The position numbers were made by a program, and so were the translations under genes. The notes under the pieces are model-generated. The model saw only the letters and a list, made by a program, of their open reading frames with translations, did no database searches and was not told the DNA's origin. A stretch of 64,000 bases of DNA from Escherichia phage vB_EcoM_ASO2A. The stretch lies in the sequence record MZ726793.1, one strand, 5' to 3'. Below are positions 4,783 through 64,000 of this stretch, piece after piece. The first letter of the stretch is position 1. Each line of letters opens with the position of its first letter.

Positions 4783-5624
4783 TACCTCTCCTTATTAAGT
4801 AATACTGCTAAAGACTGTTCAATACCTTTATTTAAATCTGATTTTGTAAGATAGTGACTGGTTACTAGTTGTGACTTCACCGGACGTGCTGCTGGAGCAT
4901 TATAGGTTGAAGCTGATACCGCCGATATCTTAACAGGTTCTGGCATCTGTGTCAAGATCTTTTCCGCAAACTCCGCCCAAGAAATAAGATGGCTTCCTGC
5001 AAAATGGTAAGTCTTAACAGACCTTGACCAACCTGTTTTTAATACTTCAAAAATAGCTTCTGCTAAATCTGGAGCATATGTTGGACAAGAGAACTGATCA
5101 GCAACAATAATAAAATCACGTTGTCCATCATTATAGCGAGACAACATGGTTTTTAGAAAGTTATTTCCAAATTCGCTATATACCGAGGCTGTTCGAATAA
5201 TATATGCATTTGGGTTAACTCCTCGCACCATTTTTTCACCAAGTTCTTTCGTATACCCATAATTGTTTATTGGGTTAGGTGTAGTATCTTCAAAAATAGG
5301 ATGAGAATAATTAAAAATATAGTCTGTAGAAATATGCACAAAATCAATTTTAAGTTTGCTGCACACTGCCGCAATATTTGCAGGTCCATACGCATTAACA
5401 GCCAAAGCAGTAGCAAAATCATGTTCTGCTTTATCTACAGCCGTATAAGCGGCGCAATTAATAACACCATCTACATAATCTTCAATAATAGCGTTTCGCA
5501 CAGCTTCAAAATTTGTAATATCTACACGTTCTTTAGGATAAATTAAAGATACATTTGAAGGAGCCACTTTACGTAAAGCTTGTCCCAGTTGTCCATTACC
5601 GCCCAATACCAGATATGTTAGCAT
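4782..5624 (-). CDS. rmlD: dTDP-4-dehydrorhamnose reductase
   Basis: N-terminal Rossmann motif LVLGGNGQLGQAL, ~280 aa, last gene of rml operon. Confidence 0.8.
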   Translation of the reverse strand: MLTYLVLGGNGQLGQALRKVAPSNVSLIYPKERVDITNFEAVRNAIIEDYVDGVINCAAYTAVDKAEHDFATALAVNAYGPANIAAVCSKLKIDFVHISTDYIFNYSHPIFEDTTPNPINNYGYTKELGEKMVRGVNPNAYIIRTASVYSEFGNNFLKTMLSRYNDGQRDFIIVADQFSCPTYAPDLAEAIFEVLKTGWSRSVKTYHFAGSHLISWAEFAEKILTQMPEPVKISAVSASTYNAPAARPVKSQLVTSHYLTKSDLNKGIEQSLAVLLNKER

Positions 5625-29156: not shown

Positions 29157-29231
29157 GGCCCTGTAGCTCAATGGGAGAGCTGTCGGCTCATAACCGATAG
29201 GTAGCTGGATCGAAACCAGCCAGGGCCACCA
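29157..29231 (+). tRNA. tRNA anticodon CAU (Met or Ile2 if lysidine-modified)
   Basis: Manual cloverleaf: acceptor GGCCCTG/CAGGGCC, anticodon loop CTCATAA, T-arm GCTGG-ATCGAAA-CCAGC, encoded CCA. Confidence 0.8.
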
Positions 29232-29233
29232 AC

Positions 29234-29308
29234 GTCTTTATGGTGTAATGGATAGCACAGGAGTCTTCTAAACTCTTAGTCAAGGTTCGATTCCTTGTAA
29301 AGACACCA
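29234..29308 (+). tRNA. tRNA-Arg (UCU)
   Basis: Acceptor GTCTTTA/TAAAGAC, anticodon loop CTTCTAA, T-arm CAAGG-TTCGATT-CCTTG, CCA. Confidence 0.8.
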
Positions 29309-29501
29309 GAACATTTTAACATGAATTAGCTCAAGTGATTTGAACCCACTACTGATCATGGTGGCAGAGAATGAGGCAAGTATGTCAGACATTATAAACA
29401 AAGGCCACGGTTATATTAGAAGACATAAATGCTCGAAGAGCACCGTTCGTGGAGAACGGGGTTGGTGGAGTCACCATTCATGGTAAAATGTTTTAAAAAA
29501 C

Positions 29502-29541
29502 TATTGACAACTAACATTATTTTATGTTAGATTATAAGTAT
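29502..29541 (+). promoter_or_regulatory. sigma70-like promoter, conserved AACTATTGACAA element (copy 2)
   Basis: AACTATTGACAA-N17-TAGATT immediately before tRNA-Ser. Confidence 0.5.
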
Positions 29542-29632
29542 GGAAGGGCAAATCGACGTGGCGACGAAAACGGTCTTGAAAACCGCCGAGCTTGAAAGAG
29601 CCTTGGGAGTTCGACTCTCCCTCCTTCCGCCA
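29542..29632 (+). tRNA. tRNA-Ser (UGA), class II
   Basis: Acceptor GGAAGGG/TCCTTCC, anticodon arm CGGT-CTTGAAA-ACCG, long variable arm, T-arm GGGAG-TTCGACT-CTCCC, G73, CCA. Confidence 0.75.
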
Positions 29633-29637
29633 GATTA

Positions 29638-29723
29638 GGTAGATTGGTGAAATGGTAGCCACGACAGTTTGCTAAACTGTAGTCGGAAACGGCGTGTAGG
29701 TTCGAGTCCTACATCTACCGCCA
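29638..29723 (+). tRNA. tRNA-Ser (GCU), class II
   Basis: Acceptor GGTAGAT/ATCTACC, anticodon arm ACAGT-TTGCTAA-ACTGT, long variable arm, G73, CCA. Confidence 0.8.
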
Positions 29724-29853
29724 AGTTCTTTTTAATATAGCTTACTTTAGCAGAGTAAATCTTCGGCAAGTGGCGGTAACCACTTTACCGATAACTCATA
29801 GTTAGTGGTGTGAACACTGGCTATTTTAAAAAGAATTTAAATATTAGTATTTA

Positions 29854-29941
29854 GGTGAGTTAATTCCGTAGGGGTAGCGGGGCAGACTGTAAATCTGTTA
29901 TCATTGCGATTCGGGTGGTTCGACTCCATCACTCACCACCA
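29854..29941 (+). tRNA. tRNA-Tyr (GUA), class II
   Basis: Acceptor GGTGAGT/ACTCACC, anticodon arm CAGACTGTAAATCTG as in bacterial tRNA-Tyr, long variable arm, A73, CCA. Confidence 0.8.
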
Positions 29942-29946
29942 AATTA

Positions 29947-30032
29947 AGATGAGTTGGCTGAATGGTTTAAGCGGCGGACTGTTAATCCGTGTTCGAAAGA
30001 ACGATATAGGTTCAAATCCTATACTCATCGCC
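29947..30032 (+). tRNA. tRNA-Asn (GUU), atypical with long variable arm
   Basis: Acceptor GATGAGT/ACTCATC, anticodon arm GCGGA-CTGTTAA-TCCGT, extra hairpin GTTC-GAAA-GAAC in variable region, G73, CCA. Confidence 0.6.
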
Positions 30033-30039
30033 AGAATTA

Positions 30040-30116
30040 TGGACTTGTAGAGTTAAGGTAAACCCCCAGTCGCCAAGAGGCTTCTGGAATTGCAGGTATC
30101 GAATCCTGCCGAGTCC
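30040..30116 (+). ncRNA. tRNA-like element without canonical anticodon arm
   Basis: Acceptor GGACTTG/CGAGTCC and T-arm GCAGG-TATCGAAT-CCTGC (8-nt loop); central region folds as a CCAG...CTGG hairpin. Confidence 0.35.
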
Positions 30117-30123
30117 CAGCTTT

Positions 30124-30198
30124 GCTCCTATAGTATAATGGCTATTACAACGGTTTTGTAATCCGTGGATCTCTGTTCGATTCAGAGTGGGAGCACCA
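30124..30198 (+). tRNA. tRNA-Thr (UGU)
   Basis: Acceptor GCTCCTA/TGGGAGC, anticodon loop TTTGTAA, T-arm CTCTG-TTCGATT-CAGAG, CCA. Confidence 0.7.
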
Positions 30199-30471
30199 AC
30201 ACAACATTAAGGGCACTGTGATTGATCGTCGTATCCTGTGCACAAGGTCTGTTCGAAAGACAGTGTTCTTAGTATTGTGTTGATCACACAAAAAGAGTTA
30301 CCTGAAACTTGACCGGAGTAGGGTTGGATGGGGCAAAAGAAGAAGCGGCTCTCCCATCGACAGCAACGAAGAATAATATTTGACTTTGGTTTTGTATTAT
30401 TTTAAGTTAGCTTACCGAACGTAGGGCTAGTCACCCAACGGGATACTCGTCACTGTCCCACTCAATAAAAC

Positions 30472-30512
30472 TATTGACAACCAATAGTAAAATGTAGTAT
30501 AGTAAAGATGTA
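30472..30512 (+). promoter_or_regulatory. sigma70-like promoter, conserved AACTATTGACAA element (copy 3)
   Basis: AACTATTGACAA-N15-17-TAGTAT/TATAGT immediately before tRNA-Gly. Confidence 0.5.
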
Positions 30513-30514
30513 GG

Positions 30515-30588
30515 GCGTTCTTGGTGTAGCGGTAGCATTCCGTCCTTCCAAGTCGGCGGCACGAGTTCGATCCTCGTAGAACGCTCCA
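30515..30588 (+). tRNA. tRNA-Gly (UCC)
   Basis: Acceptor GCGTTCT/AGAACGC, anticodon loop CTTCCAA, T-arm ACGAG-TTCGATC-CTCGT, CCA. Confidence 0.75.
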
Positions 30589-30686
30589 AATTATTTAATA
30601 AAGGGTTGCCAGAAAACTTTCTCTTTTACTCATGGTTTTCTCCTTCTCTCACACCTCTTCTGGTTGCCCTTCATTAAATGATTTAT

Positions 30687-30762
30687 TGGTTTGTAGTGTA
30701 GTCCGGTAGCACACGACACTTTGACTGTCGTAGGTTTGGTTCAAATCCAGACAGACCAGCCA
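30687..30762 (+). tRNA. tRNA-Gln (UUG)
   Basis: Acceptor TGGTTTG/CAGACCA, anticodon arm CGACA-CTTTGAC-TGTCG, T-arm TTTGG-TTCAAAT-CCAGA, CCA. Confidence 0.75.
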
Positions 30763-30855
30763 TATAACAAAGGTGAGTCACTACCTCAAGTGTGAAGTTA
30801 AAAACGAGGAGCCGCCGAACACTTTCTTTTGCGGTGTACCTTTAGAATGTTATGA

Positions 30856-30932
30856 CGGAATTTAGCTCAGTTTGGTAGAGTGTACGCTTTGGGAGCGTAT
30901 TGTCGCAGGTTCGAATCCTGCAATTCCGACCA
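30856..30932 (+). tRNA. tRNA-Pro (UGG)
   Basis: Acceptor CGGAATT/AATTCCG (C1-G72), anticodon arm TACGC-TTTGGGA-GCGTA, T-arm GCAGG-TTCGAAT-CCTGC, CCA. Confidence 0.85.
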
Positions 30933-30938
30933 ATTAAA

Positions 30939-31012
30939 TGTTTCGTAGTTCAATGGTAGAACCCACGACTGATAATCGTGAGATACAAGTTCGATTCTTG
31001 TCGAAACAACCA
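30939..31012 (+). tRNA. tRNA-Ile (GAU)
   Basis: Acceptor TGTTTCG/CGAAACA, anticodon arm CACGA-CTGATAA-TCGTG, T-arm ACAAG-TTCGATT-CTTGT, CCA. Confidence 0.8.
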
Positions 31013-31014
31013 GT

Positions 31015-31084
31015 TTCCCGTTAGACTTACAGGATAAGAGTTCCACAATTTATTGTGACGCTGGTTCGAATCCAGCACGGGATA
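31015..31084 (+). ncRNA. atypical tRNA-like element with shortened anticodon arm
   Basis: Acceptor TTCCCGT/ACGGGAT (1:72 mismatch), D-arm, T-arm GCTGG-TTCGAAT-CCAGC; anticodon region CACAA-TTTA-TTGTG has a 4-6 nt loop; no encoded CCA. Confidence 0.35.
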
Positions 31085-31090
31085 CATAAT

Positions 31091-31169
31091 AGCGGGATAG
31101 AGGAGTCTGGTCGTCCTCGCCAGTTTCATATGCTGGAGATCATTGGTTCAAATCCAATTCCCGCCTCCA
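31091..31169 (+). tRNA. tRNA anticodon CAU (Met), 1:72 unpaired
   Basis: Acceptor AGCGGGA/TCCCGCC with A1xC72 mismatch, D-stem GAGG/CCTC, anticodon loop TTCATAT, T-arm ATTGG-TTCAAAT-CCAAT, CCA. Confidence 0.7.
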
Positions 31170-49850: not shown

Positions 49851-50477
49851 ATGGGAATCCCTTTTGACTTAAAGCTTGGACCAAACAACGACCTCATCAT
49901 GGATGATGGGGATTTGGTCCTCACTACAACCAGAACAGAAATTGCAGCACAAACTCTTGGGATAACTCTGAACACGTATCGTGGGGAGTGGTTTTTAAAT
50001 ACTAACTTCGGTGTTCCTTACTTACAAGAGATTATTGGTGTTGCCAGAAAGAAAGATATTGTAGACAGAATATTTTTAGCAGAGATTGCCAAAAACGTTT
50101 ACATAGATACAATAAACAGTTATAAATCTGCTTATGATATGGATCAACGTTATTACTCAATGACAGTTATGGTCACAGTTGGAGCAGATACAGTAACATC
50201 TATATTCAATACTCAACCTTCTGAAGAGTTTATTTACCCTGAAGCTGGTGAAGACAATGCAGCGATCATTTGTGAAGCTTACAGTATTGTTGAGAATTCG
50301 AATAGACTTTATCGCTTTATCAACTTTGTTGGTTTGCCACGTGATACCTACTCTACTTGGTGGAATGAATGGTCTACAGAGTCAGCAGTGGAAAGAATCA
50401 TGGTTAACGAAAAAGGTGATGCATTAACTACAAACAATAATTTCGGTATAACAGCTATGACAGGAGTAGAAGAGTAA
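49851..50477 (+). CDS. baseplate protein (208 aa)
   Basis: Position. Confidence 0.35.
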   Translation: MGIPFDLKLGPNNDLIMDDGDLVLTTTRTEIAAQTLGITLNTYRGEWFLNTNFGVPYLQEIIGVARKKDIVDRIFLAEIAKNVYIDTINSYKSAYDMDQRYYSMTVMVTVGADTVTSIFNTQPSEEFIYPEAGEDNAAIICEAYSIVENSNRLYRFINFVGLPRDTYSTWWNEWSTESAVERIMVNEKGDALTTNNNFGITAMTGVEE

Positions 50478-50950
50478 TGGCAGATTTAACTACGATCAAA
50501 ATTTCTGATCTTACACAAACAACCTCTGTGTCTGATACAGATTTCTTTGTAACAGATCAGGCTGGAATAACAAAGAAAACTTCTTTGAAAGTGTTGTTGA
50601 GTGGTGCAGGGGTAACTAGAAACCGTCTGAATGCACGGGGAACAGTAACTAGCACCCTGGCATTAGATATTAGTTCGGCAGAATATTTTTCAGCAACTTT
50701 ATCTTCTGCAACGTGCACAATTAGTTTTACTAATATTCCAGTAGCAACAAATGCAGTTTTAAACTTTACTTTAGCTTTGCGTCAAGGAAGTGGTGCAAAT
50801 AAAGTCGTATGGCCTTCTTCTGTAAAATGGAGTTTTGGTCGTTCCCCAGTTTTGAGTTATCGTCAAGGTGCAACAGACACTTTTGAGTTTATCAGTTATG
50901 ATAATGGAGCAACTTGGACAGGTAGCTTAGTTTTAGCAGGAGTTATTTAA
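50477..50950 (+). CDS. baseplate/tail protein (157 aa)
   Basis: Position. Confidence 0.35.
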   Translation: MADLTTIKISDLTQTTSVSDTDFFVTDQAGITKKTSLKVLLSGAGVTRNRLNARGTVTSTLALDISSAEYFSATLSSATCTISFTNIPVATNAVLNFTLALRQGSGANKVVWPSSVKWSFGRSPVLSYRQGATDTFEFISYDNGATWTGSLVLAGVI

Positions 50951-53826
50951 TGTCAAGAGTTAAGCACAATATTGACAACACGTTTCAGTTGATTGAAGGG
51001 TTGGTTCAGTTTTTGGAAAGAAATACTGGGCTTACCATAGATCCTACGGTTCAGCATTACATTATCAACCCACAAAACGTATTGGCGAACAACAGACACT
51101 TTATTAACTGGACAGCGCAGGAAGGGCAACCAAACGGTGACGCTACTACCGAAGGTCAATCTGTGCTTATCACTGGTTTTGCTTATGCATATTTGGCTAC
51201 AGGGGATAAAAAATATCTTGAATCTGCCGAGAAGTATTGGCAAGCCTATATAGATCACTTCTTCGGGGGCCAACCTATTCCTGATCCTCCGGCTAAATAT
51301 CGTCCCAACTGGATCATCAATGGTAAAGAACCACGTTTAGCACATTACCCTCTCACAGATGATGGGTATCCTACGCACGGTGGGTTCAAAGGTAGCATGA
51401 TGACTTGGATTAACGGAAGGACTGTTATTCCTAAAGGTGCGCCACACTGGGGAGAATACTTAGATAAAGCTTGGTTTGCTTTCAATGGTAATCTTGGTTG
51501 GAACTCTGTTAACGCAACAGTGTATGCAACTAACCCAGATGGTTCAACCAACTGGAAAGAATATGGAGATCAGTGGGACGTTGAATGGATTATAGACCGT
51601 CTAGGACGTAAAGTTGATTGGGATGGTAACATTTTATCTACTGGTCATAGCTTTGCAGAATATGGAACAGTGCAACTTAAAAATGCTTCTGTGAACGGGG
51701 ACTATAAATTCAACTACGCTACATGCAATCCTGTAGAACACGGTGGATATCTGCTTAAGCGTAATGAGATGTGGCATAACCGTCCTGTAAACGTTCCGGT
51801 AGAGTTAGGCTATCAAGATAATGCTTCCGATGCTGAAACGTGGTGGTGTGATGCAAACTACTTGATGTATCAGATCACAGGAGAGAGAAAATACTGGCTT
51901 TGCTGGCAATCTTCTTTATTGTTGTGTCAAGACTACTCAAACATCGATATGTTTGATAAATTCTTCCGTAGATCTACGACAGCAATAATTCCTTTTACAG
52001 ATGGTATCTCGTATGATTACTCATACCCATCTACAGCAATACCTAAATATTCTCGTGACGAATTAGGATACACAGTAATTCGCCAAGATGTTTCAGCACA
52101 AACAACTCTAGAACAACAGGCAGTTTGGTTCAGAGTGGATCAGAATTCAAAACTTCGTATTGAGTTTCAAGGTGTAGATGATGCAGGGGAAGGTGTTCTT
52201 TTCCGTCCAGAGTTAGAATTAAGCAAAACTAAGAGTGAAACAGATACAGTTACATATCGTTGTGGCTTACCTCTTGGTGCAGCTAATATGACTAAGATGG
52301 ATATACCTTTATCCAGTTTTATGCGCACTGAACCTCCTGGAGGCGGTGTATATATTATTGCTGAACCTAGAATCATTGTTGACTGGGGAAGCAATACTGT
52401 GATACAATATAAATATGCAACTGGTATTGCTGGGACAAATAGTGATCAGATAGTTTCTGCTAATATGGATTCAGATGGTGGTTTTACTGTTGGGTTTTGG
52501 TTAACACCAACTAAAACAGCCAATTTAAAATCTATTACATATCGTTCATACGCAGATGATTTTAACATCACTATTACGGATTCCGCAGGTTGGAGATGGT
52601 GGGCCATGTTAGAAAAAACAAATTCTACATGGGTTACTAAAGCTTTAAGTCCTGCTGATTTCAAATTAAGCACTTGGCAACCCAATCATAACGACACAGA
52701 GACAAAACCTTCGTCAATAAACCTGACTGCTGTTGATCAGATCAACATTGCATTGGATTCTGAACCTGCAAATGGCTTGACAGGGGCAATCGATTTTTAT
52801 TGTGTTAACGATATCCCATCTTTGTATTCTTCAGCCGCTGGTGATGATTACACAATGTATTTCAGGGTTACAGTTTCATCTGAAAATCCTTATACAGCAA
52901 AACTTGGAGATTGTACAATACTGGACTACAAACTTGACAGTTTGAATTATACTCCAGGAATCATTCCATTTTCCAATATTAGTGATCCTAACACAGCATT
53001 ATATGACGGTTGGCGTGGTATTCCTTACCCAGGTTATCAATACCCATCCTTATATTGTTTTAAAGGGAGAGATATTGACTGGGTTCGTATGAACAACAGT
53101 ATAGACTTTTTATATGATTCACAAATGTGGTTTTATAATAAGTTTGCCCCTGTAATGCCTGGGCCAATGGCACAAGCTTATGTTTGGGATCGTTGGGATG
53201 CTCATAAATATGGAAACAAAAATGAGTTCACAATGTATCATTGGAACGATAAAGCTTGGGATGGTTATGAAGCACGAGCATTCTTCTGTGCGTGTCATAC
53301 GGTATACGAACTAAAGCGACAAGGAGCCGAAGTTCCTGAAAAACTTTTAACAGTTTGTAAAAACTGGATCAACTACCTGAAGTGGTTCCAAGATAACAAC
53401 GAAGGAAGAACACCAACAATATTTTATCCCAACGGAGAAGTGGCTGCGCCTGTAGATGACTTTACAAGTCACATGTCTGCGCTCTTTATGGCGGGATGTG
53501 CTATAATGGGGATGGCTGGATATGATTCAGAAATCCCTAACATTAAAATAGTAGCAGACCGCTGTTTTGAACTTATTCAGGAAAACTATATTGTTCTTGG
53601 TCCTAATCACGTTATGAATGGTTGTTGGAGTGCTGCTCCTAGACCAGACAGTGATAACGGAGTCTTCTTTGGCTTCCACGCTGGAGAGTTGTTACGTGGT
53701 TTTGGGTTGTATGCTTTATACAAAAAACTTAGTCCCCAAAATGCATTACCTGTTTTGGATTCGAGCAATATTCCTGCACTTACTGTTTTGACAATGGCAA
53801 ACATTAGTGTGGACGTTACCGAGTAA
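50950..53826 (+). CDS. large tail-associated protein (958 aa), possible polysaccharide-degrading tailspike
   Basis: Size, Trp/Tyr-rich, first of three consecutive large genes in the tail module. Confidence 0.4.
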   Translation: MSRVKHNIDNTFQLIEGLVQFLERNTGLTIDPTVQHYIINPQNVLANNRHFINWTAQEGQPNGDATTEGQSVLITGFAYAYLATGDKKYLESAEKYWQAYIDHFFGGQPIPDPPAKYRPNWIINGKEPRLAHYPLTDDGYPTHGGFKGSMMTWINGRTVIPKGAPHWGEYLDKAWFAFNGNLGWNSVNATVYATNPDGSTNWKEYGDQWDVEWIIDRLGRKVDWDGNILSTGHSFAEYGTVQLKNASVNGDYKFNYATCNPVEHGGYLLKRNEMWHNRPVNVPVELGYQDNASDAETWWCDANYLMYQITGERKYWLCWQSSLLLCQDYSNIDMFDKFFRRSTTAIIPFTDGISYDYSYPSTAIPKYSRDELGYTVIRQDVSAQTTLEQQAVWFRVDQNSKLRIEFQGVDDAGEGVLFRPELELSKTKSETDTVTYRCGLPLGAANMTKMDIPLSSFMRTEPPGGGVYIIAEPRIIVDWGSNTVIQYKYATGIAGTNSDQIVSANMDSDGGFTVGFWLTPTKTANLKSITYRSYADDFNITITDSAGWRWWAMLEKTNSTWVTKALSPADFKLSTWQPNHNDTETKPSSINLTAVDQINIALDSEPANGLTGAIDFYCVNDIPSLYSSAAGDDYTMYFRVTVSSENPYTAKLGDCTILDYKLDSLNYTPGIIPFSNISDPNTALYDGWRGIPYPGYQYPSLYCFKGRDIDWVRMNNSIDFLYDSQMWFYNKFAPVMPGPMAQAYVWDRWDAHKYGNKNEFTMYHWNDKAWDGYEARAFFCACHTVYELKRQGAEVPEKLLTVCKNWINYLKWFQDNNEGRTPTIFYPNGEVAAPVDDFTSHMSALFMAGCAIMGMAGYDSEIPNIKIVADRCFELIQENYIVLGPNHVMNGCWSAAPRPDSDNGVFFGFHAGELLRGFGLYALYKKLSPQNALPVLDSSNIPALTVLTMANISVDVTE

Positions 53827-53834
53827 GGGGTAAA

Positions 53835-55988
53835 ATGAAACAAGCTATATTTACTGTCACGCGAGACAAGAGAGTAAATGCGAGTTCATTTAACTACACG
53901 ACTGTTGACGGAACAGCAGTCGCTGGTAGAGATTATATTGCAAAATCGGGAACACTTGTGTTCCCTGATGATGCTGATTCTGCTACTATTGTGGTTGAAG
54001 TATTTGAACGACCAAAGAACTCAATAGATCTTAACTTCTCCCTCCAAGTTTCAGGGATTAGTCAAAATAACATGATGGTTGAAACAACCATCAATTGTAT
54101 TATAACTACTATCCAAGAAAATACTACTCCAATAACTTGGACTACAAAAGACGTTAAAATGTTCTCTCCTATGTATTGGACAATAGATTCTCAAGCAACG
54201 GAAAGTTGTTCTATTGTATCTCATGGAGACTCTTTTACTGCAAGATTTGTAAACAGAACAACAGCAGGTTTGGCAGGGGTTATCTGGAGTACAGTTGACA
54301 AATATGACCATAAAGGTGTTGGGTATTTGCCTCACACAGATTTAAGTTCAGAGAAACTTTGGTTTAAAATGGAAATTAGTCAAAACATGCCAGGTTTTAA
54401 AGAAGAACCTTTGGTGCCGACTTTGACTGTAACTCTCCTGGATAAAAGTGTTCATTATGTCAGTTTAGGATTCTACGCTTCAGATATTTCAGAAGATGGT
54501 AAAACAGCAACAATAAAGTTAGATTTTGGTAATATCTTTTCTGGCCCTAATAATGATATTCCTTTGGATATGAGTGCTGTAGATAATATTTTCTTCTCTT
54601 TGATTACAGCAAGGTATGAAGAAATAGAAGAGGTTGTACCTATTGGCAGTCAAGAGGCTTGGTTTACTTTCACTCTTCTTGAACCTACCTCTGGTTATAG
54701 TATGATGAAAGTCAGCAACCTTGTCCAGCCTGAACATGATATTCGCATGTGCACATCTTATGATGATATGTATAACCTGACTCCAGAGAGAGTTATTTAT
54801 AATACATATGCACTAGGTTATCGTGGAATGATTAACCATTACAACGGAATGTCTCACTATTATGAGTTCTCATGGAACGGAACATCTTGGGCTTTAAATA
54901 GATCTGTCTTCCTGAATCCAGCTACAGAAGCTTGGCTAAATAGTTTCCATTCTATAGCGAACGAGAAGGGTTACACAATAATGAACTCTTTAAGTTTTGA
55001 GTTGATGAGCACAGTTTGTCCTGTTGAATGGGTCCAGCATGATTGGAACGATGCTCTTGCAGCAACAGGGTATAAGCCTCCTAGTTACGTGTTGTCTCCA
55101 ACTATTGACGAAGGCATGGAATATTTGCAAAATGTTATTAACAAAATAGCATCTATTTCTCAAGCTAACAATATTCCAGTCGTCATTCAAATTGGTGAAC
55201 CTTGGTGGTGGTATAATACAGCAAGTAAAATGCCTTGCATATACGATTACACTACCAAACTGGCATTCAACACAGAAACTGGCTTATTTGCACAAGATGC
55301 AGGAACAATAGATAATTATAAAACAGGAACGCCGTTTGACGAATATTATGCGTTTTTGTCTCGTAAACTAGGATTAAGAGTTACAAAGTTTGCAACAGAT
55401 ACTAGAGCATCTTACCCAGGAGCTAAAGTAACATTGCTTCCGTTCTTACCATCGATTATCGGCAACGGTTTGATGGAGAAAGTTAACTTTCCGTCTGATT
55501 ACTACATTCCTGAAGCTTTTGATTTTTACTGTTCAGAGTGTTACGACTGGCTTCTGGAAGGTAAGATGATGAAAGCATTTGATGCAATTACCATACCACA
55601 TGAAAAATTAGGTTTTGAATATTCTGATATTCACTATCTTTCAGGTTTTGTTCCAGATGCTACTCTTGCGCCTTTGTATGGCTTCGATCCTGAATCAAAC
55701 TACCGCACGTATCTTTGGAAAATGATTATAGGTAATATAGTGTTGAACGCCAACAAGTTTAACGGACTTACACAATATATATGGGCCTATCCTCAAATAA
55801 TGCACGATTCCATTACGGTAGTTAACTCTCAATCCCAAGTTTTCTATATGGGTAATGTGCCTTTGAATTGTTATTTGCAAGATATCAATCTTAAACAAGC
55901 AAATGTTGAGATTGCTACCATAAGTGGAATTACATTAGCTACTAAATCTGGAGAAGATTTAGTAACAACACAAAAATTTTATATATAG
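53835..55988 (+). CDS. tail protein with N-terminal Calx-beta-like domain (717 aa)
   Basis: NYTTVDGTAVAGRDYIAKSGTLVFPDDADSATIVVEV resembles a Calx-beta motif. Confidence 0.4.
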   Translation: MKQAIFTVTRDKRVNASSFNYTTVDGTAVAGRDYIAKSGTLVFPDDADSATIVVEVFERPKNSIDLNFSLQVSGISQNNMMVETTINCIITTIQENTTPITWTTKDVKMFSPMYWTIDSQATESCSIVSHGDSFTARFVNRTTAGLAGVIWSTVDKYDHKGVGYLPHTDLSSEKLWFKMEISQNMPGFKEEPLVPTLTVTLLDKSVHYVSLGFYASDISEDGKTATIKLDFGNIFSGPNNDIPLDMSAVDNIFFSLITARYEEIEEVVPIGSQEAWFTFTLLEPTSGYSMMKVSNLVQPEHDIRMCTSYDDMYNLTPERVIYNTYALGYRGMINHYNGMSHYYEFSWNGTSWALNRSVFLNPATEAWLNSFHSIANEKGYTIMNSLSFELMSTVCPVEWVQHDWNDALAATGYKPPSYVLSPTIDEGMEYLQNVINKIASISQANNIPVVIQIGEPWWWYNTASKMPCIYDYTTKLAFNTETGLFAQDAGTIDNYKTGTPFDEYYAFLSRKLGLRVTKFATDTRASYPGAKVTLLPFLPSIIGNGLMEKVNFPSDYYIPEAFDFYCSECYDWLLEGKMMKAFDAITIPHEKLGFEYSDIHYLSGFVPDATLAPLYGFDPESNYRTYLWKMIIGNIVLNANKFNGLTQYIWAYPQIMHDSITVVNSQSQVFYMGNVPLNCYLQDINLKQANVEIATISGITLATKSGEDLVTTQKFYI

Positions 55989-55996
55989 GAGTAAAA

Positions 55997-58762
55997 ATGT
56001 CAACTACAATTACTAATTTACCCGAAACATCAAAAGTTAATGATTCTGATTACCTGGTTTTAGACCAACCTGATAAGACTGTTAAAAGCACAGTTTCCAA
56101 CTTTCTTACTGACACTGGGGTGGTTTTAGCCACCCAGTTGAAAGATACAGATGGTGCTACCAAGTATCCAGAACTTCAAATGTCACGTTGGAGAGATGAA
56201 GGTGATCCTAGAGGATGGGGAGCAGTAGGTGACGGAGCAACAGACGATACTAATGCCATAACACAGCTTCTTGCTGCTATGCCTGATGGATGGATTGTTG
56301 ATGGGCGTAATCTCACTTTCAAGGTTACAACACTACCAGATATAAGCAAGTTTAAAAACGCCGCTTTTGTTTACGAGCGTATTGTTGGACAACCCCTTAC
56401 TTACGTATCTGCGGGTTTCTTCGATGGAAATCTGACAAAAATTACGGATACACCATTTTACAATGCTTGGACGCAAGATAAGACGTTTGTTTATGACAAT
56501 GTTATATATGCACCATTTATGGCTGGCGAACGTCATGGTGTACAAAACCTCCATGTAGCGTGGGTTAAATCAGGAGATGATGGACAAACTTGGTCTATGC
56601 CAGAATGGTTAACTCCAATTCATCCTGGTTATAATGCCTCTTCAGCAAACAAAGTTAACTATCATTGTATGAGTATGGGTGTATGTGGTAATCGCTTATA
56701 TGCAGTGATCGAAACCCGTTACTTATCTAACATGCGATTGAAGAAAGCAGAACTTTGGTCACGTCCAATGCCTTATTATAGAAGGCCAACTGGAGGCATA
56801 ACAATTAGTTCTGGGTCTACTACAGCGACAATTGTTTTAGAAAAGCATGGTCTTAAAGTTGGAGATGCTGTTAACTTTTCCAATTCAGGTGCAACTGGCG
56901 TATCTGGAAATATGACTGTTGCATCTGTAATTAACAAGGATACATTTACTGTTACATTAGCGAGTGCTGCCACATCTAATATAGATAATACAGGAACTAC
57001 TTGGCATTTTGGAACACGTTTCTGGGATAGCCCTTGGGAAATTACAGAATTACCAGATGTTGCCTATTCTACTAATGCAGATTTATGTGTTACAGAAACC
57101 CATAGTTTTACAGTTATAGATGATGATAATTACACTTTTGCTGTTGGTTATCACAATGGTGATGTTTCCCCAAGAAGATTAGGTATTTTGTATTTCAATA
57201 ATGCTTACTCTGACCCAAGTTCTTTTACTCGTAGAACAATTAGTCAAGAATATGCTGACAATGCAGCAGAACCCTGCATTAAATATTATGATGGAATTTT
57301 ATATTTAACTACTAGGGGTACTTCAACTTCTGCTGCTGGTTCTACATTAGCAATGAGTACCGACCTTGGAGAAAACTGGAATTACTTAAGATTCCCTAAC
57401 AACGTTCATCATACAAACTTACCATTTGCAAAAGTTGGTAACTACCTTTATATCTTTGGTACAGAACGTTCATTCGGAGAATGGGAAGGAGAAGAACTAG
57501 ATAATAGATATAAAGGCACGTATCCTCGAACGTTTATGTGCAAGATTAATGTATCTTCATGGCCTACATCTTTATCCGATGTTCAATGGTTTAATATCAC
57601 TGATCAGATGTATCAAGGGCATATTGTTAATTCTGCATGTGGTGTTGGTTCGGTATGTGTTAAAGATGGTTGGTTATATTATATCTTTGGAGGCGAAGAT
57701 TTCTTATCTCCTTGGTCTATTGGAGATAATAGTAAAAAATTATGGTACAAGCATGATGGTCATCCAGCCGATTTATATAGTTATAGACTAAAGATTACCG
57801 AACATGATTTTGTATCACGTGATTTCAAATATGGAGCTACGCCAAACCGTACGTTGCCTGTATCTATGGGTACAGATGGGGTAAGGCATGTCTCAGCCCC
57901 TGTAACTTTTGATAATGATGTACAAGTATACTCTTTAACAGTTACTGGCCTTGAGCATGATGGGACGCAACAATCTGCCGTTAGAATAAAATTAGACGGT
58001 GATTATGGGGTTGTTGCAAAAAATGTCCCAATAAAAAATCCTTCTGAACAGCGACTAATCCTATGCGGAGGAGAAACTCCTTACGTTACGGATGGATCGC
58101 TATTACAACTATATGGTTCAAACCATACGTATCCAAACAGAGCAGTTTTATATGCCCCAGGAGGAGCATATACCCAAAATAATTTCATGCCGTATTTAGA
58201 TGGACAAGTTGCATTAGGCGGTGCGTCTAACAGATGGTCAGAAGTGTACGCATCTACAGGAACCATTAATACTTCGGATGGAACATTAAAAACTAAACCT
58301 ACAGAGATTGAAGATATTTTACTGAAAGCATGGGAAGATATTCATGTAATCTCTTACCAATGGCTTAGTGCTGTCGCGGAGAAAGGAGATTCTGCGCGTA
58401 TTCATTTTGGTGTTATAGCTCAAGATGTAAGAGATATTCTGATTAATTATGGTTTAATGGATGAAAATAGCACTGATTGTAAGTATGCTTTTCTGTGTTA
58501 TGATGAATACCCTGCTATGTACGATAGTGTTGTTACGGGACAAAAAGAAATCCCTTTATTTGATGATGAAGGGAATGTTGTAATTGATGAAGAAGGTAAT
58601 CCAGTAACAATCGTAGAAGATGTTGTAGAAACTATCGAAATAATTCCAGCAGGATCGCGATGGGGTATCCGCGCTGACCAAATGTTTTTTATTGAGATGG
58701 CTTATCAACGTAAAAAGTTAAAAGCTCTTGAAGAAAGACTTGCAACCCTGGAAAGTAAATAA
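55997..58762 (+). CDS. tailspike with sialidase-like beta-propeller and C-terminal self-cleaving chaperone domain
   Basis: Tail-fibre-like N-terminus, two Asp-boxes (SGDDGQTWS, STDLGENWN), C-terminal domain with NTSDGTLKTK ... HFGVIAQDV resembling S74-type intramolecular chaperones. Confidence 0.65.
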   Translation: MSTTITNLPETSKVNDSDYLVLDQPDKTVKSTVSNFLTDTGVVLATQLKDTDGATKYPELQMSRWRDEGDPRGWGAVGDGATDDTNAITQLLAAMPDGWIVDGRNLTFKVTTLPDISKFKNAAFVYERIVGQPLTYVSAGFFDGNLTKITDTPFYNAWTQDKTFVYDNVIYAPFMAGERHGVQNLHVAWVKSGDDGQTWSMPEWLTPIHPGYNASSANKVNYHCMSMGVCGNRLYAVIETRYLSNMRLKKAELWSRPMPYYRRPTGGITISSGSTTATIVLEKHGLKVGDAVNFSNSGATGVSGNMTVASVINKDTFTVTLASAATSNIDNTGTTWHFGTRFWDSPWEITELPDVAYSTNADLCVTETHSFTVIDDDNYTFAVGYHNGDVSPRRLGILYFNNAYSDPSSFTRRTISQEYADNAAEPCIKYYDGILYLTTRGTSTSAAGSTLAMSTDLGENWNYLRFPNNVHHTNLPFAKVGNYLYIFGTERSFGEWEGEELDNRYKGTYPRTFMCKINVSSWPTSLSDVQWFNITDQMYQGHIVNSACGVGSVCVKDGWLYYIFGGEDFLSPWSIGDNSKKLWYKHDGHPADLYSYRLKITEHDFVSRDFKYGATPNRTLPVSMGTDGVRHVSAPVTFDNDVQVYSLTVTGLEHDGTQQSAVRIKLDGDYGVVAKNVPIKNPSEQRLILCGGETPYVTDGSLLQLYGSNHTYPNRAVLYAPGGAYTQNNFMPYLDGQVALGGASNRWSEVYASTGTINTSDGTLKTKPTEIEDILLKAWEDIHVISYQWLSAVAEKGDSARIHFGVIAQDVRDILINYGLMDENSTDCKYAFLCYDEYPAMYDSVVTGQKEIPLFDDEGNVVIDEEGNPVTIVEDVVETIEIIPAGSRWGIRADQMFFIEMAYQRKKLKALEERLATLESK

Positions 58763-58810
58763 TACAGCTTAGGTGGTATTTCAATCTTTATATCTCACTT
58801 AGAGGTACTC

Positions 58811-59074
58811 ATGGCTAAAGAGAAAAACGGTTTTAAAAAATTTATTCGCGGAATGTTCTGCACTTACCCCGGCAACGGGGTAAGCTCTACGAAAGTCTGG
58901 AACGCTGTAGGCATGTCTGTTATGACAGGCATGTTTATCTTTTTAGGAATAGAAAAAGAAATTCCTGAATGGATGGGTTGGGCTTTTGTTTTCATGATAA
59001 CCCCTTCTCGCCTCATGAAAAATCTTATTGATTTACGTTGGGGCAGATCACAATCTACTAAAGAGGATGACTAA
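58811..59074 (+). CDS. small membrane protein (87 aa)
   Basis: Two hydrophobic segments. Confidence 0.3.
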   Translation: MAKEKNGFKKFIRGMFCTYPGNGVSSTKVWNAVGMSVMTGMFIFLGIEKEIPEWMGWAFVFMITPSRLMKNLIDLRWGRSQSTKEDD

Positions 59075-60561
59075 TGGACGAATATGGTTTGACAGATGCG
59101 GGATTTGTAATCCCGACTTTTGACGATGTTTTAAACAACTACATGACAGCAGTAAAAAACACATTTGGTGCAGATGCAGCCACTTCGGAAGATACTGTGA
59201 TCGGGCAACTGTTTAGAATAATTGCATACACAGATTACACATTGTGGGAAGGTATGCAAGGTGTTTATAATACTCAAACACTGGATGGTGCAGAAGGTAT
59301 TTATCTTGACGAAATCTTTTCTAAACGCGGTTTCTATCGAGCAGGGGCAGCAGCAAGTACAGGTTATGCATATGTTAAGAGCAATAACAAAGCAGCTTGG
59401 ACTTATGAGCTAGGCACGGATATTTACTTCAACTCTGATAGTGATATGAACTACTATGTTAGCACACCAACTATGTTGAATGCTAAGATTGCAGCTTATC
59501 AAATCTCTCGTGCTAATGCAACTGCTACAGGTGTTCCAAATATTACTTTTTATGCACAAAGTGCGGTAGATGGAGGACTAAACAGTAAAACACTTGCACC
59601 TGGTTCTTCTACATTTATAACCGATCTTGAAACTTTTATCAAGGCAAATTTAACAGAAGCTGATCGTAGTCTTGTATTTTCTGATTCAGGTAACTTATCA
59701 ATTGGTTTTACTTCTTTAACTAGTGATACTCCAGTGGGACTGGTAACTCCTATTAAATTTTATGCTAGTGTTCCGGTTGGAACCAAGTGGAGTGAGATTC
59801 CGGTAGTTGCAGCAGAGAAAGGATACAACCCTGTTGGCGTGGAGTCTATTACAGGGATATCTTCTACCTTTACAGGTTATCTTGACAGTGGTAACTTTTA
59901 TTCATTTTCTCCTGGTCGGGATGTTGAGACAGACGCAGAATTCCGCTCTCGTTTCAATGACAACGTTGATGAAGCTAACGCAGGGACACGAGCAGCTATT
60001 GTGAAAGCTCTGCTACTTACAGATGGTGTTACTAAGGTGAAGATTTATGATAACCCCACATTACATGATCAAGAACATGCTCCGGCTATGACTTTCCAGA
60101 CTATAGTTTATGGAGGAAGTGCTGAAGAAGTTGCTGAAGTTATTTACAAAACTAAACCAATCAACAGTTTGACACATGGAACAACCAACATAACTGTTAC
60201 AACGGAAGACGGAGGACAAGAAATTATTCGTTTTTCTCCTGGTGCTTCTGCTACGTATTCCGTAAAACTTGTTTATCAAACTGTCAACGGAACAACTTTA
60301 AGTGGAACAGAAAAACAAAACATTGTAGAAGCTTTACAAAACCTGCAAGCTTACTTTGAATTAGGTTCTTCAGTAACGAACGATCAAATCAAAGGTGTTA
60401 TTTATGCAGCACTTGCTTTTGGACGCTTGACTTCTCTTCGTGTTTATGTTAAACTTAATACTGAGGATGACAGTAAATATACAGAGAATAATATAGTTCC
60501 TGCTTATAATGTTGTCCCTTCTTTTGACCTTGATAACATTTCTTACGAGTATGGAGTGTAA
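59074..60561 (+). CDS. baseplate wedge (J-like) or tail fibre-associated protein (495 aa)
   Basis: Position and size. Confidence 0.35.
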   Translation: MDEYGLTDAGFVIPTFDDVLNNYMTAVKNTFGADAATSEDTVIGQLFRIIAYTDYTLWEGMQGVYNTQTLDGAEGIYLDEIFSKRGFYRAGAAASTGYAYVKSNNKAAWTYELGTDIYFNSDSDMNYYVSTPTMLNAKIAAYQISRANATATGVPNITFYAQSAVDGGLNSKTLAPGSSTFITDLETFIKANLTEADRSLVFSDSGNLSIGFTSLTSDTPVGLVTPIKFYASVPVGTKWSEIPVVAAEKGYNPVGVESITGISSTFTGYLDSGNFYSFSPGRDVETDAEFRSRFNDNVDEANAGTRAAIVKALLLTDGVTKVKIYDNPTLHDQEHAPAMTFQTIVYGGSAEEVAEVIYKTKPINSLTHGTTNITVTTEDGGQEIIRFSPGASATYSVKLVYQTVNGTTLSGTEKQNIVEALQNLQAYFELGSSVTNDQIKGVIYAALAFGRLTSLRVYVKLNTEDDSKYTENNIVPAYNVVPSFDLDNISYEYGV

Positions 60562-62819: not shown

Positions 62820-63155
62820 ATGGAATTTCAAGAAGCATGGGGACTTGCAAAGGATGCAATAATCCCTTTAATCGGAGTCATCTGGTTCTTTTTCAAACAA
62901 AAAATGGATAAATTCGGCTCTGATCTTGAGGAAATGGAGGAGAAAAGTCGAGAGCTAGAGAAGAAGTTGGTCTTTGTTGAATCAACTTATGCAACTAAAG
63001 CCGAACTTACCCAGATGCTAAATCAAATTAACTCTACATTAATGGCAAATAATAACACTCTTGAGCAAAAAATTGAAAAGATTATGGACCTCAAGAATGC
63101 GACTATCCAAATGATGCTAGATGACATAGTTAAACGTACACAGAATAAGGGGTAA
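62820..63155 (+). CDS. membrane-anchored coiled-coil protein (111 aa)
   Basis: N-terminal hydrophobic segment then coiled coil. Confidence 0.3.
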   Translation: MEFQEAWGLAKDAIIPLIGVIWFFFKQKMDKFGSDLEEMEEKSRELEKKLVFVESTYATKAELTQMLNQINSTLMANNNTLEQKIEKIMDLKNATIQMMLDDIVKRTQNKG

Positions 63156-63158
63156 TTA

Positions 63159-64000
63159 ATGGCAACATTCCCAACGTATCCAGCAACGTCTCTTGAACAG
63201 GGCGTAGATCTGGTTATTTTCTCGTCCAATCAACTTCATGATGTTATTAATGGAAGTGCGACAGAAAGTATTGAGACAGAATCAGGATTGATACCAACCC
63301 TGAGAAAAGCCCTTGTTGATAACTTTTTCTTTAAAAGCCCATTGGATTGGGCGCAAGGCACAAATGAAACGGTTTTTAACCAACTTCGTTATTTCCAGAA
63401 TGGAGTATTGAGCGGTTATTACTATGCTCCTAACGCTACATTGGTTAACCCTATCCCTATGCAAGGGACTCCAGTAGGAGATAACAACTGGGTATTGTGG
63501 GGACTGAAGACAGAACAATTGGCAACAGAAGTCACCCCTTGGGTATATTCTGGTGCAACTGGTTATGAAACAGTAATTAGTCCTCCTTACATCTTTGATA
63601 GTGCTATTGTTACGATCAATGGTGTTATTCAGGTTCTGGGGGAAGCTTTCCGTATAGAAGATAGTAAGATCATCTTATCTGAACCTTTGGGACACGATCC
63701 TGCAACAGGACTGCCAAACAAGCTTTTTGCTTATATTGGTAAAATCGTAGCTTCAGCAGATACAGATCCTAATCTAGAGAACCGTCTTGTTAGTTTAGAA
63801 ACAAAAACGGAAGAACTAACAGAAAGCATGGATAAAGTCCCTCTGCAAACTATTGCTCGTAAATATGGTTTGTTAGATGATGAGGTGGCTTACGCAACAG
63901 CAGGTCAATCGTTAACAGGGATTAAAGCTGTGTATGATCCAGTAGCACAGTCTTCCTACACATTACCTCCTAACATCACAGGAACTTTAACATCCTTGTC
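63159..64000 (+). CDS. tail fibre-like protein, partial (runs off window end)
   Basis: Manual translation from ATG 63159 (MATFPTYPATSLEQGVDL...) is open to position 64000; not in the ORF track. Confidence 0.45.
   Translation, partial: MATFPTYPATSLEQGVDLVIFSSNQLHDVINGSATESIETESGLIPTLRKALVDNFFFKSPLDWAQGTNETVFNQLRYFQNGVLSGYYYAPNATLVNPIPMQGTPVGDNNWVLWGLKTEQLATEVTPWVYSGATGYETVISPPYIFDSAIVTINGVIQVLGEAFRIEDSKIILSEPLGHDPATGLPNKLFAYIGKIVASADTDPNLENRLVSLETKTEELTESMDKVPLQTIARKYGLLDDEVAYATAGQSLTGIKAVYDPVAQSSYTLPPNITGTLTSL

What the first reader, a model, noticed from the sequence alone, without database searches (positions are those of the whole stretch)
50950..58762. Run of three large tail-spike-like genes, one sialidase-like with a self-cleaving chaperone domain
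Consecutive genes of 958, 717 and 921 aa follow the baseplate genes, with more fibre genes after them. The 921-aa protein has two Asp-boxes (SGDDGQTWS, STDLGENWN), typical of sialidase beta-propellers, and a C-terminal domain resembling the intramolecular chaperone that is cleaved off after trimer folding (NTS/DGTLKTK). The 717-aa protein opens with a Calx-beta-like motif. Several distinct spikes suggest a multivalent adsorption apparatus aimed at capsules such as polysialic acid.
Basis: partly seen in the sequence, partly recalled or inferred. Interest (0 to 1): 0.5.

Follow-up and report, generated by a model that had tools for sequence, protein, structure and literature searches.

The report
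Known phage endosialidase tailspike locus

Summary
The three ORFs (958, 717 and 921 aa) and every quoted motif are present. The window is a Phapecoctavirus (phAPEC8-like myophage). This region is 99.9% identical to phages PNJ1809-36 and MirsaeidiM_Esher1 and syntenic with phi92 gp141-gp142-gp143.

The 921-aa protein is an EndoN92-type endosialidase. It is 96.6% identical to phi92 gp143 (PDB 4HIZ) and hits all five endosialidase/S74 Pfam domains. The catalytic Glu/Arg/Arg and the Ser-Lys self-cleavage dyad are conserved. It sits in an exchangeable spike slot: a conserved 54-aa N-terminal anchor carries other enzyme bodies in sister phages. The cassette is 93-97% identical to phi92 DNA, against about 75% in the flanks.

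The other two proteins are not tail spikes in the classical sense. The 958-aa protein is predicted to form an (alpha/alpha)6 barrel like GH8/GH76/GH105 enzymes. The 717-aa protein is Calx-beta plus a TIM barrel homologous to coliphage N4 sheath proteins gp64/gp65. That homology is already published as the shared module of phages that depend on the N4 glycan receptor (NGR).

Nothing here is new, and interest is low.

The parts
50477..50950 (+). 157-aa phi92 gp140 homologue; small tail protein always paired with the 958-aa family
   Evidence: 83% aa identity to phi92 gp140. phrog_9017 'tail fiber protein', E 2.7e-68. A 173-aa homologue (32% id, E 7e-21) directly precedes the 943-aa homologue in a Pseudomonas P2/HP1-like prophage. 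Its stop codon overlaps the next start codon (TAATG).
50950..53826 (+). 958-aa conserved tail protein (phi92 gp141 homologue), predicted (alpha/alpha)6-barrel glycoside-hydrolase-like fold with two inserted beta domains
53835..55988 (+). 717-aa protein (phi92 gp142 homologue): Calx-beta + NCTSP_N beta domain + NCTSP TIM barrel; relative of coliphage N4 sheath proteins gp64/gp65
53844..54080 (+). Calx-beta domain (aa 4-82 of the 717-aa protein)
   Evidence: PF03160, 42.2 bits, cut-off 27. Absent from the Acinetobacter and fusion homologues.
54729..55808 (+). TIM barrel (aa 299-658) carrying family-invariant D310 D311, E389, QIGEPWWW (452-459) and E568
   Evidence: Pfam match covers 1-346 of 348 model positions. 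Invariant columns in the 30-sequence alignment A4. The same motifs are kept in N4 gp64 (FQIGEPWWW, IEDYDW) and gp65 (GFDDGYNLTPER).
55997..58762 (+). 921-aa endosialidase tail spike precursor (EndoN92 type)
   Evidence: Five Pfam domains. 96.6% aa identity to phi92 gp143. PDB 4hiz E=0, endoNF 3gvl/1v0e E about 1e-235, endoNF C-terminal chaperone domain 3gw6 E 1.7e-70.
55997..56158 (+). N-terminal particle anchor (aa 1-54), conserved while the spike body is swapped
   Evidence: Nearly identical in the non-sialidase spikes of Ro121c4YLVW and SF1-1 and in phi92. Most Phapecoctavirus genomes stop matching the query at positions 5195-5286, i.e. aa about 50-80. Anchor-only ORF relics exist in relatives.
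56423..57796 (+). six-bladed beta-propeller catalytic domain (aa 143-600) with the inserted beta-barrel (aa 259-341, nt 56771-57019); two Asp-boxes at nt 56570-56593 and 57356-57379
   Evidence: PF12217 and PF12195. E425, R440, R491 and H180 align with endoNF E581, R596, R647 and H350. Asp-box positions.
57803..58273 (+). stalk (tail-spike) domain, aa 603-759
   Evidence: PF12219, E 6.4e-63. Aligned to 4hiz through its last residue, T759.
58274..58759 (+). C-terminal intramolecular chaperone domain (aa 760-921), predicted to be released by cleavage before S760
   Evidence: PF13884 at aa 760-819. S760 and K765 align with endoNF S911 and K916. The phi92 record annotates the mature chain as ending at the equivalent Thr and the CTD as starting at the equivalent Ser.
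55840..58860 (+). segment of 93-97% nucleotide identity to phi92, set in flanks of about 75%: a laterally exchanged endosialidase cassette
   Evidence: 300-nt and 40-nt identity profiles.

Best explanation
The region is the central part of the host-adsorption gene block of a phAPEC8-like myophage (genus Phapecoctavirus) and is orthologous to phi92 gp141-gp142-gp143. It has a constant part and a variable part. The constant part is two glycoside-hydrolase-fold tail proteins: the 958-aa (alpha/alpha)6-barrel protein and the 717-aa Calx-beta/TIM-barrel protein related to N4 gp64/gp65. They are conserved across the subfamily and act together; in another phage they are fused into one chain. I infer that they bind or process a conserved enterobacterial surface glycan, most likely the N4 glycan receptor (NGR). 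The variable part is a spike slot. A 54-residue N-terminal anchor fixes an exchangeable enzyme body to the baseplate. Here that body is an EndoN92-type endosialidase. It should fold as a trimer with help from its C-terminal chaperone domain, which then cuts itself off before Ser760 using a Ser760/Lys765 dyad. The mature spike depolymerises alpha-2,8 polysialic acid (the K1 capsule, and possibly K92), which lets the phage reach its secondary receptor in the LPS. Shown here: homology, domain anatomy, conserved catalytic and cleavage residues, slot swapping and the recombination footprint. Inferred: enzymatic activity of all three proteins, the NGR target, and the physical arrangement on the baseplate.
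For: Locus identity: 99.9% to PNJ1809-36 and MirsaeidiM_Esher1, and collinear with phi92 gp139-gp149. Endosialidase: Pfam domains; PDB 4hiz, 3gvl and 3gw6; catalytic E425/R440/R491 and cleavage S760/K765 conserved. Phi92 gp143 is annotated, and described in a 2026 paper, as a biochemically confirmed endosialidase that acts on alpha-2,8 and alpha-2,8/2,9 polysialic acid (PMC13450770). PNJ1809-36 uses the K1 capsule and then LPS (PMC12488582 and PMC11641727). Slot: shared anchor with different spike bodies; only 9 distinct phages carry this enzyme body; identity to phi92 steps from about 75% to 93-97%. 958/717 pair: predicted folds; natural fusion P0103 in an SU10-like podophage; invariant acidic residues shared with N4 gp64/gp65. 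N4 gp64 has homologues in Phapecoctavirus, Justusliebigvirus and rV5-like phages, whereas no homologue of the N4 gp66 appendage was seen among those myophage genera. NGR dependence of N4, Vequintavirinae and phi92-like phages, and the N4 Gp64 homology, are published (PMC8594841, PMC8669472, PMC11990801).
Against: No activity was measured here for any of the three proteins. NGR dependence has been shown for phi92-like and rV5-like phages but not, in the papers I could read, for a Phapecoctavirus. The 2026 cryo-EM study of phi92 did not place gp141 or gp142 in the baseplate density, so their position, and even their stoichiometric presence in the virion, rests on older work I could not read (Schwarzer 2012). 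The window's enzyme differs from EndoN92 at 31 positions, including a 3-residue insertion in a propeller loop, so K92 activity cannot be assumed.
Confidence: 0.85

Rival explanations
1. One reading: three independent tail spikes, each a depolymerase for a different capsule or O-antigen, give the phage three extra host specificities.
For: A review that cites Schwarzer 2012 lists phi92 Gp141 and Gp142 as 'glycosidase' receptor-binding proteins alongside Gp143 (PMC5380687). Both have glycoside-hydrolase folds.
Against: The 958- and 717-aa proteins are 97-99% conserved in Phapecoctavirus genomes that differ in the spike slot. They keep 43-55% and 34-38% identity in phages and prophages of Pseudomonas, Enterobacter, Acinetobacter and marine bacteria. 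They have no beta-helix, no trimeric stalk, no chaperone domain and no shared N-terminal anchor. Strain-specific depolymerases normally vary between close relatives.
Confidence: 0.07
2. The 958- and 717-aa proteins are purely architectural baseplate or arm components. Their glycosidase-like folds are catalytically dead scaffolds, much as N4 gp64/gp65 build a structural sheath.
For: N4 gp64-gp65 form a structural, non-contractile sheath (PMC13434306). The 958-aa family sits between the wedge genes and the fibre genes in a P2/HP1-like prophage. No sequence-level membership of any CAZy-type family was found.
Against: Acidic and aromatic residues typical of sugar sites are invariant: D310/D311, E389, QIGEPWWW and E568 in the 717-aa family, and NASDAE 291-296, D64 and E913 in the 958-aa family. 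In the 717-aa family they are conserved all the way to N4. A scaffold alone would not need them. The two readings are not exclusive.
Confidence: 0.3
3. The endosialidase gene is a decaying or re-targeted copy that no longer acts on polysialic acid.
For: 31 substitutions relative to EndoN92, including a 3-aa insertion at 213-215 and a change in the second Asp-box (T455 against Ala). Relics of this gene exist in relatives (ECO340P1 keeps only the last ~290 nt; anchor-only ORFs).
Against: The reading frame is intact and all catalytic and cleavage residues are conserved. A 99.9%-identical gene is present in PNJ1809-36, a K1-capsule-dependent phage.
Confidence: 0.04

Closest known systems
Phage phi92 gp143 (EndoN92), PDB 4HIZ
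   Same: 96.6% aa identity, same length class, and the same domain order: anchor, N-terminal extension, propeller with inserted barrel, stalk, chaperone. Same genomic position after the gp142 homologue. Same cleavage site.
   Different: 31 differences, including an N-A-S insertion at 213-215. The host genome is a different genus (Phapecoctavirus, not Justusliebigvirus), with about 75% DNA identity in the flanks.
Phage K1F endosialidase endoNF (PDB 1V0E/3GVL; chaperone domain 3GW6)
   Same: 53% identity from aa ~55 onward. Catalytic E/R/R, two Asp-boxes, Ser-Lys cleavage dyad and C-terminal chaperone are all conserved.
   Different: K1F carries a ~245-aa T7 gp17-like N-terminal adaptor for a podovirus tail. 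Here a 54-aa anchor for a myovirus baseplate takes its place. Two of three tested stalk positions that I recalled as endoNF sialic-acid contacts (S848, Q853) are not conserved (V697, L702).
Phages PNJ1809-36, phAPEC8, ESCO5 and REC (Phapecoctavirus with endoN)
   Same: 98-99.9% DNA identity across the whole region. ESCO5 and REC are already reported to carry a depolymerase 96% identical to phi92 endoN (PMC10269720). PNJ1809-36 is reported to use the K1 capsule plus LPS.
   Different: The window is not identical to any deposited genome (best 99.7% over 25 kb).
Coliphage N4 non-contractile sheath proteins gp64/gp65 (PDB 9LC0, 9YF4)
   Same: The 717-aa protein shares the NCTSP_N and TIM-barrel domains and the QIGEPWWW, DD and E motifs. 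N4 and phi92-like phages both depend on the NGR glycan.
   Different: N4 uses a heterodimer of two paralogous chains on a podovirus tail, and gp65 has seven or more further domains. Here a single chain carries an added Calx-beta domain, in a myovirus baseplate operon.
Phi92 gp141 / PVP-SE1 gp050 family (phrog_2871)
   Same: 82.8% identity to gp141 and the same gene position.
   Different: None of note. Its function is unknown in every member.

Membership tests
Bacteriophage endosialidase (GH58) tail spike | Six-bladed beta-propeller catalytic domain of the endosialidase type | tested here: met
   PF12217 E 2.2e-212, model positions 1-366 of 367. 4hiz aligned over aa 75-759.
Bacteriophage endosialidase (GH58) tail spike | Catalytic residues equivalent to endoNF Glu581, Arg596 and Arg647 (residue numbers recalled from Stummeyer et al. 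2005, not re-read) | tested here: met
   E425, R440 and R491 align with them; H180 aligns with H350.
Bacteriophage endosialidase (GH58) tail spike | Two Asp-box motifs, S-x-D-x-G-x-x-W | tested here: met
   aa 192-199 and 454-461.
Bacteriophage endosialidase (GH58) tail spike | Beta-barrel insertion and trimeric stalk domain | tested here: met
   PF12195 E 4.1e-38 and PF12219 E 6.4e-63.
Bacteriophage endosialidase (GH58) tail spike | Endo-cleavage of alpha-2,8-linked polysialic acid | not testable with these tools
   Reported as biochemically confirmed for the 96.6%-identical phi92 enzyme (record annotation; PMC13450770). K1 dependence is reported for PNJ1809-36.
Peptidase S74 / C-terminal intramolecular chaperone domain | S74 domain at the C-terminus, directly after a triple-beta-helix/stalk | tested here: met
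   PF13884 at aa 760-819, 48 bits against a cut-off of 22. 3gw6 E 1.7e-70 over aa 663-921.
Peptidase S74 / C-terminal intramolecular chaperone domain | Ser-Lys dyad at the cleavage site (endoNF Ser911/Lys916; residue numbers recalled from Schulz et al. 2010) | tested here: met
   S760 and K765 align with them. The phi92 record places the mature end at the equivalent site.
Peptidase S74 / C-terminal intramolecular chaperone domain | Autoproteolytic release after trimer folding | not testable with these tools
   Would need expression and SDS-PAGE or mass spectrometry, with an S760A control.
Calx-beta domain | Profile match above the curated threshold | tested here: met
   PF03160, 42.2 bits against 27, aa 4-82 of the 717-aa protein. 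PDB Na/Ca-exchanger CBD hits at E about 1e-4.
N4-type non-contractile tail sheath protein module (NCTSP_N + TIM barrel) | Both Pfam domains in order, with structural similarity to N4 gp64/gp65 | tested here: met
N4-type non-contractile tail sheath protein module (NCTSP_N + TIM barrel) | Forms a sheath around a non-contractile tail tube | tested here: not met
   The host is a contractile-tailed myophage whose own sheath gene is elsewhere (one search lists 'tail sheath'; baseplate context). The database name 'non-contractile tail sheath' is therefore misleading for this protein: the domain is shared, not the role.
Classical trimeric beta-helix tail spike (for the 958- and 717-aa proteins) | Right-handed parallel beta-helix or trimeric fibre body with an N-terminal particle anchor | tested here: not met
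   The AF2 models are an (alpha/alpha)6 barrel plus beta domains, and Calx-beta plus beta-sandwich plus TIM barrel. No Beta_helix or Tail_spike_N Pfam hit.
(alpha/alpha)6-barrel glycoside hydrolases (GH8, GH76, GH88/105) for the 958-aa protein | Fold | tested here: met
(alpha/alpha)6-barrel glycoside hydrolases (GH8, GH76, GH88/105) for the 958-aa protein | Sequence-family membership and identifiable catalytic acid/base | tested here: inconclusive

The most novel reading that the evidence does not exclude
The 958-aa (alpha/alpha)6 protein and the 717-aa TIM-barrel protein form one complex; they are fused in an SU10-like podophage. This complex may be the still-unassigned density of phi92-type baseplates, either the proximal arm of L-shaped 'fibre I' that carries the endosialidase through its 54-aa anchor, or 'fibre II'. 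It may also be an active glycosidase pair working on the conserved NGR glycan. In that case the published 'glycan deacetylase' label for the N4 Gp64-like module would be a misnomer, because the predicted fold matches the glycoside-hydrolase (GH153-type) domain of PgaB/BpsB and other (beta/alpha)8 glycosidases rather than a CE4 deacetylase.
Probability: 0.25. Interest if true: 0.45.

Novelty: already known. Interest (0 to 1): 0.15.

Why it matters
As it stands, this finding re-identifies a textbook case of a multivalent phage adsorption apparatus. It is useful for annotation: several deposited relatives call these genes 'tail fiber', 'capsid protein' or 'non-contractile tail sheath'. It also helps predict that the phage needs a K1-type polysialic-acid capsule. 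Two unsolved pieces remain. The first is the function of the two conserved glycosidase-fold proteins. Resolving it would explain how phi92/rV5/phAPEC8-type phages bypass O-antigen through the NGR glycan. The second is their position on the virion, which would fill the unassigned fibre density in the 2026 phi92 structure.

Tried and rejected
- **Promoter and terminator scan of 50000-59500:** counts were no higher than in shuffled sequence, so no cassette-bounding signals were found.
- **Sequence searches with the 958-aa protein:** nothing in Pfam, NCBIfam or PDB. Only structure prediction gave a fold.
- **Protein-database search with the 54-aa anchor, to catalogue alternative spike bodies:** it returned only 46-82-aa fragments. 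The slot argument therefore rests on three fetched examples and on the megablast break-points.
- **Schwarzer et al. 2012, the primary phi92 paper, is not in the held library**. What it says about gp141/gp142 is known to me only through a review table.
- **The N4 gp66 appendage as the shared NGR-binding module:** rejected for these myophages, because tblastn showed no gp66 homologue among them.
Full report
**Observation.** They are packed tightly. The first start codon overlaps the previous stop codon, and 8-nt gaps containing ribosome-binding sites separate the other genes. Both Asp-boxes (aa 192-199 and 454-461) and the string NTSDGTLKTK (aa 758-767) are present in the 921-aa protein.

**What genome this is.** The region is 99.9% identical to Escherichia phages MirsaeidiM_Esher1 and PNJ1809-36, 98.4% to phAPEC8, and 83% to phi92 across gp141-gp143. 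The last 25 kb of the window is 99.7% identical to PNJ1809-36. The window is therefore a phAPEC8-species Phapecoctavirus (subfamily Stephanstirmvirinae) and is not identical to any deposited record. Gene by gene, it is collinear with phi92 gp139 to gp149, with 73-87% amino-acid identity for most gene pairs. There are two exceptions: the third gene of the finding is 96.6% identical to gp143, and the fibre chaperone has diverged.

**The 921-aa protein.**
- It hits all four endosialidase Pfam domains and Peptidase_S74 at very strong E-values.
- It matches the crystal structures of phi92 EndoN92 (4hiz), K1F endoNF (3gvl, 1v0e) and the endoNF C-terminal chaperone domain (3gw6).
- An alignment with phi92 gp143 and K1F gp17 shows that E425, R440 and R491 correspond to endoNF Glu581, Arg596 and Arg647. 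S760 and K765 correspond to the endoNF cleavage dyad Ser911/Lys916. The endoNF residue numbers come from my memory of the primary papers, so they are a lead; the alignment itself is the test.
- The phi92 record annotates the mature enzyme as ending at the equivalent Thr and the released chaperone domain as starting at the equivalent Ser.
- The domain map is: anchor 1-54, N-terminal extension 76-142, propeller 143-600 with the barrel inserted at 259-341, stalk 603-759, cleavage before S760, chaperone 760-921.

**An exchangeable slot.**
- Of 129 phage records matching the region, only 13 (9 distinct phages) cover it fully. Most Phapecoctavirus genomes match at 97-99% up to query position 5195-5286 and then stop. 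That break-point falls at residue ~50-80 of the spike.
- In Ro121c4YLVW the same first 54 residues are followed by a 762-aa spike with a Tail_spike_N domain.
- In SF1-1 they are followed by a 625-aa pectate-lyase-like spike.
- Relatives that lost the spike body keep anchor-only ORFs, and ECO340P1 keeps only the last ~290 nt of the gene.
- Against phi92, nucleotide identity is about 62-82% on both sides but 93-97% from about 55,840 to 58,860. This is the footprint of recent lateral exchange of the cassette between two genera.
- The presence of a phi92-like endoN in Phapecoctavirus ESCO5 and REC is already published (PMC10269720).

**The 717-aa protein.**
- The NCTSP domains are named after coliphage N4 gp65. 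The protein matches N4 gp64 (E 2.9e-30) and gp65 in PDB 9lc0.
- D310/D311, E389, QIGEPWWW (452-459) and E568 are invariant in a 30-member alignment that reaches down to 27% identity. They are also kept in N4.
- In N4, gp64-gp65 form the non-contractile sheath, and gp65 is the receptor-binding protein (PMC13434306).
- The homology between N4 Gp64 and a conserved 'lateral tail fibre' of Vequintavirinae and relatives is published, there labelled a poly-GlcNAc deacetylase domain (PMC8594841).
- N4, Vequintavirinae and phi92-like phages all depend on the NGR glycan (PMC8669472; PMC11990801).
- I checked which N4 tail protein is actually shared. N4 gp64 has tblastn matches in 325 phage records, including Phapecoctavirus, Justusliebigvirus and rV5-like phages. 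For the gp66 appendage, 122 records matched, and neither the listed sample nor the tally by first word of the organism name showed any such myophage.
- This fits the idea that the gp64-like TIM barrel is the common NGR-directed module. It remains an inference, because no Phapecoctavirus was tested in the papers I read.

**The 958-aa protein.**
- It has no Pfam, NCBIfam or PDB sequence match; PHROGs calls it only 'tail protein'.
- Its family is large and unusually conserved. Identity over the full length is 43-55% in phages and prophages of Enterobacter, Pseudomonas and Stenotrophomonas, and in marine and metagenome-derived sequences.
- It is therefore not a beta-helix spike.

**Genomic context of the 958-aa family.**
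- A 1557-aa protein in an SU10-like podophage contig is a head-to-tail fusion of a 958-like part (44% identity) and a 717-like part lacking Calx-beta (51% identity).
- In a Pseudomonas P2/HP1-like prophage, a 943-aa homologue and a homologue of the upstream 157-aa protein sit between the wedge genes and the tail fibre.
- These contexts point to a conserved baseplate-periphery module that works with the 717-aa protein.

**Mechanism.**
- Shown: the anatomy and the homologies above.
- Established for close relatives: EndoN92 cleaves polysialic acid, and PNJ1809-36 needs the K1 capsule first and LPS second.
- Inferred: the spike trimerises with help from its C-terminal domain, cuts that domain off before S760, and digests the capsule. 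The constant 958/717 pair handles a conserved glycan, probably NGR. The downstream short fibre (353 aa, the phi92 gp147 homologue, 'fibre III' in PMC13450770) then makes the irreversible contact.
- The 2026 phi92 cryo-EM paper did not place gp141 or gp142 and left 'fibre II' and the arm of 'fibre I' unassigned. Its search for candidates considered only fibre-shaped predictions.

**Comparison and novelty.**
- The two upstream proteins have glycosidase folds and are not spikes.
- The recombination boundaries of the endosialidase cassette can be placed at about 55,840 and 58,860.
- The module shared with N4 resembles a glycoside-hydrolase TIM barrel rather than a deacetylase.

None of these changes the classification: already known, low interest.

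**In passing.**
- The window carries a cluster of 11 tRNA genes at 29157-31169.
- One of them, annotated tRNA-Asn(GTT) in relatives, has the long variable arm and long D-loop of class II tRNAs. It is 100% conserved in many Phapecoctavirus genomes.

Noticed in passing
window 29948-30033 (+): An 86-nt tRNA with anticodon GTT (Asn) has a class II shape: a 4-bp variable-arm stem with a GAAA loop, a long D-loop, discriminator G and an encoded CCA. It resembles the neighbouring tRNA-Ser(GCT). It is 100% conserved in dozens of Phapecoctavirus genomes, where it is annotated tRNA-Asn, and it matches Serratia, Erwinia and Proteus phages at 80-90%. Whether it is charged with Asn or with Ser (SerRS reads the long arm; textbook knowledge) is open.
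   Followed up: partly
window 29854-29938 (+): Rfam finds an eleventh tRNA (39 bits) that ARAGORN missed. It has anticodon GTA and a long variable arm, i.e. tRNA-Tyr. It is annotated tRNA-Tyr in PNJ1809-36 but 'tRNA-Pseudo-GTA' in Mt1B1_P17.
   Followed up: partly
window ~28000: GC skew changes sign here. Genes run on the - strand before ~28 kb and on the + strand after it, with the tRNA cluster (29157-31169) at the start of the rightward structural-gene block.
   Followed up: no
L007 6691-11364 (Logan SRR10874396 contig): An SU10-like podophage encodes a 1557-aa natural fusion of the 958-aa and 717-aa protein families directly after its adaptor gene. These modules therefore move between myovirus baseplates and podovirus tails.
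   Followed up: partly
window 55840-55988 and 58763-58860: The segment of high identity to phi92 starts about 150 nt before the end of the 717-aa gene and ends about 50 nt into the 87-aa gene (58811-59074). The start lies in or just upstream of the low-confidence C-terminal tail of the 717-aa protein (aa 694-717 have pLDDT below 50). This may be only a recombination break-point, or the tail and the spike anchor may travel together.
   Followed up: no
window 58811-59074 and 62820-63155: Two small genes sit inside the tail block. The 87-aa product matches a PHROG 'membrane protein' family and the 111-aa product a PHROG 'lipoprotein' family. Both are conserved in phi92 (gp144, gp149). Their role in a baseplate operon is unexplained.
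   Followed up: no
window 63159-64000: The window ends inside the homologue of the phi92 gp150 colanidase tail spike. In PNJ1809-36 this protein is 1017 aa, carries a Tail_spike_N domain and matches PDB 6e0v at E 3.9e-80. It is a further true spike of the same apparatus.
   Followed up: partly
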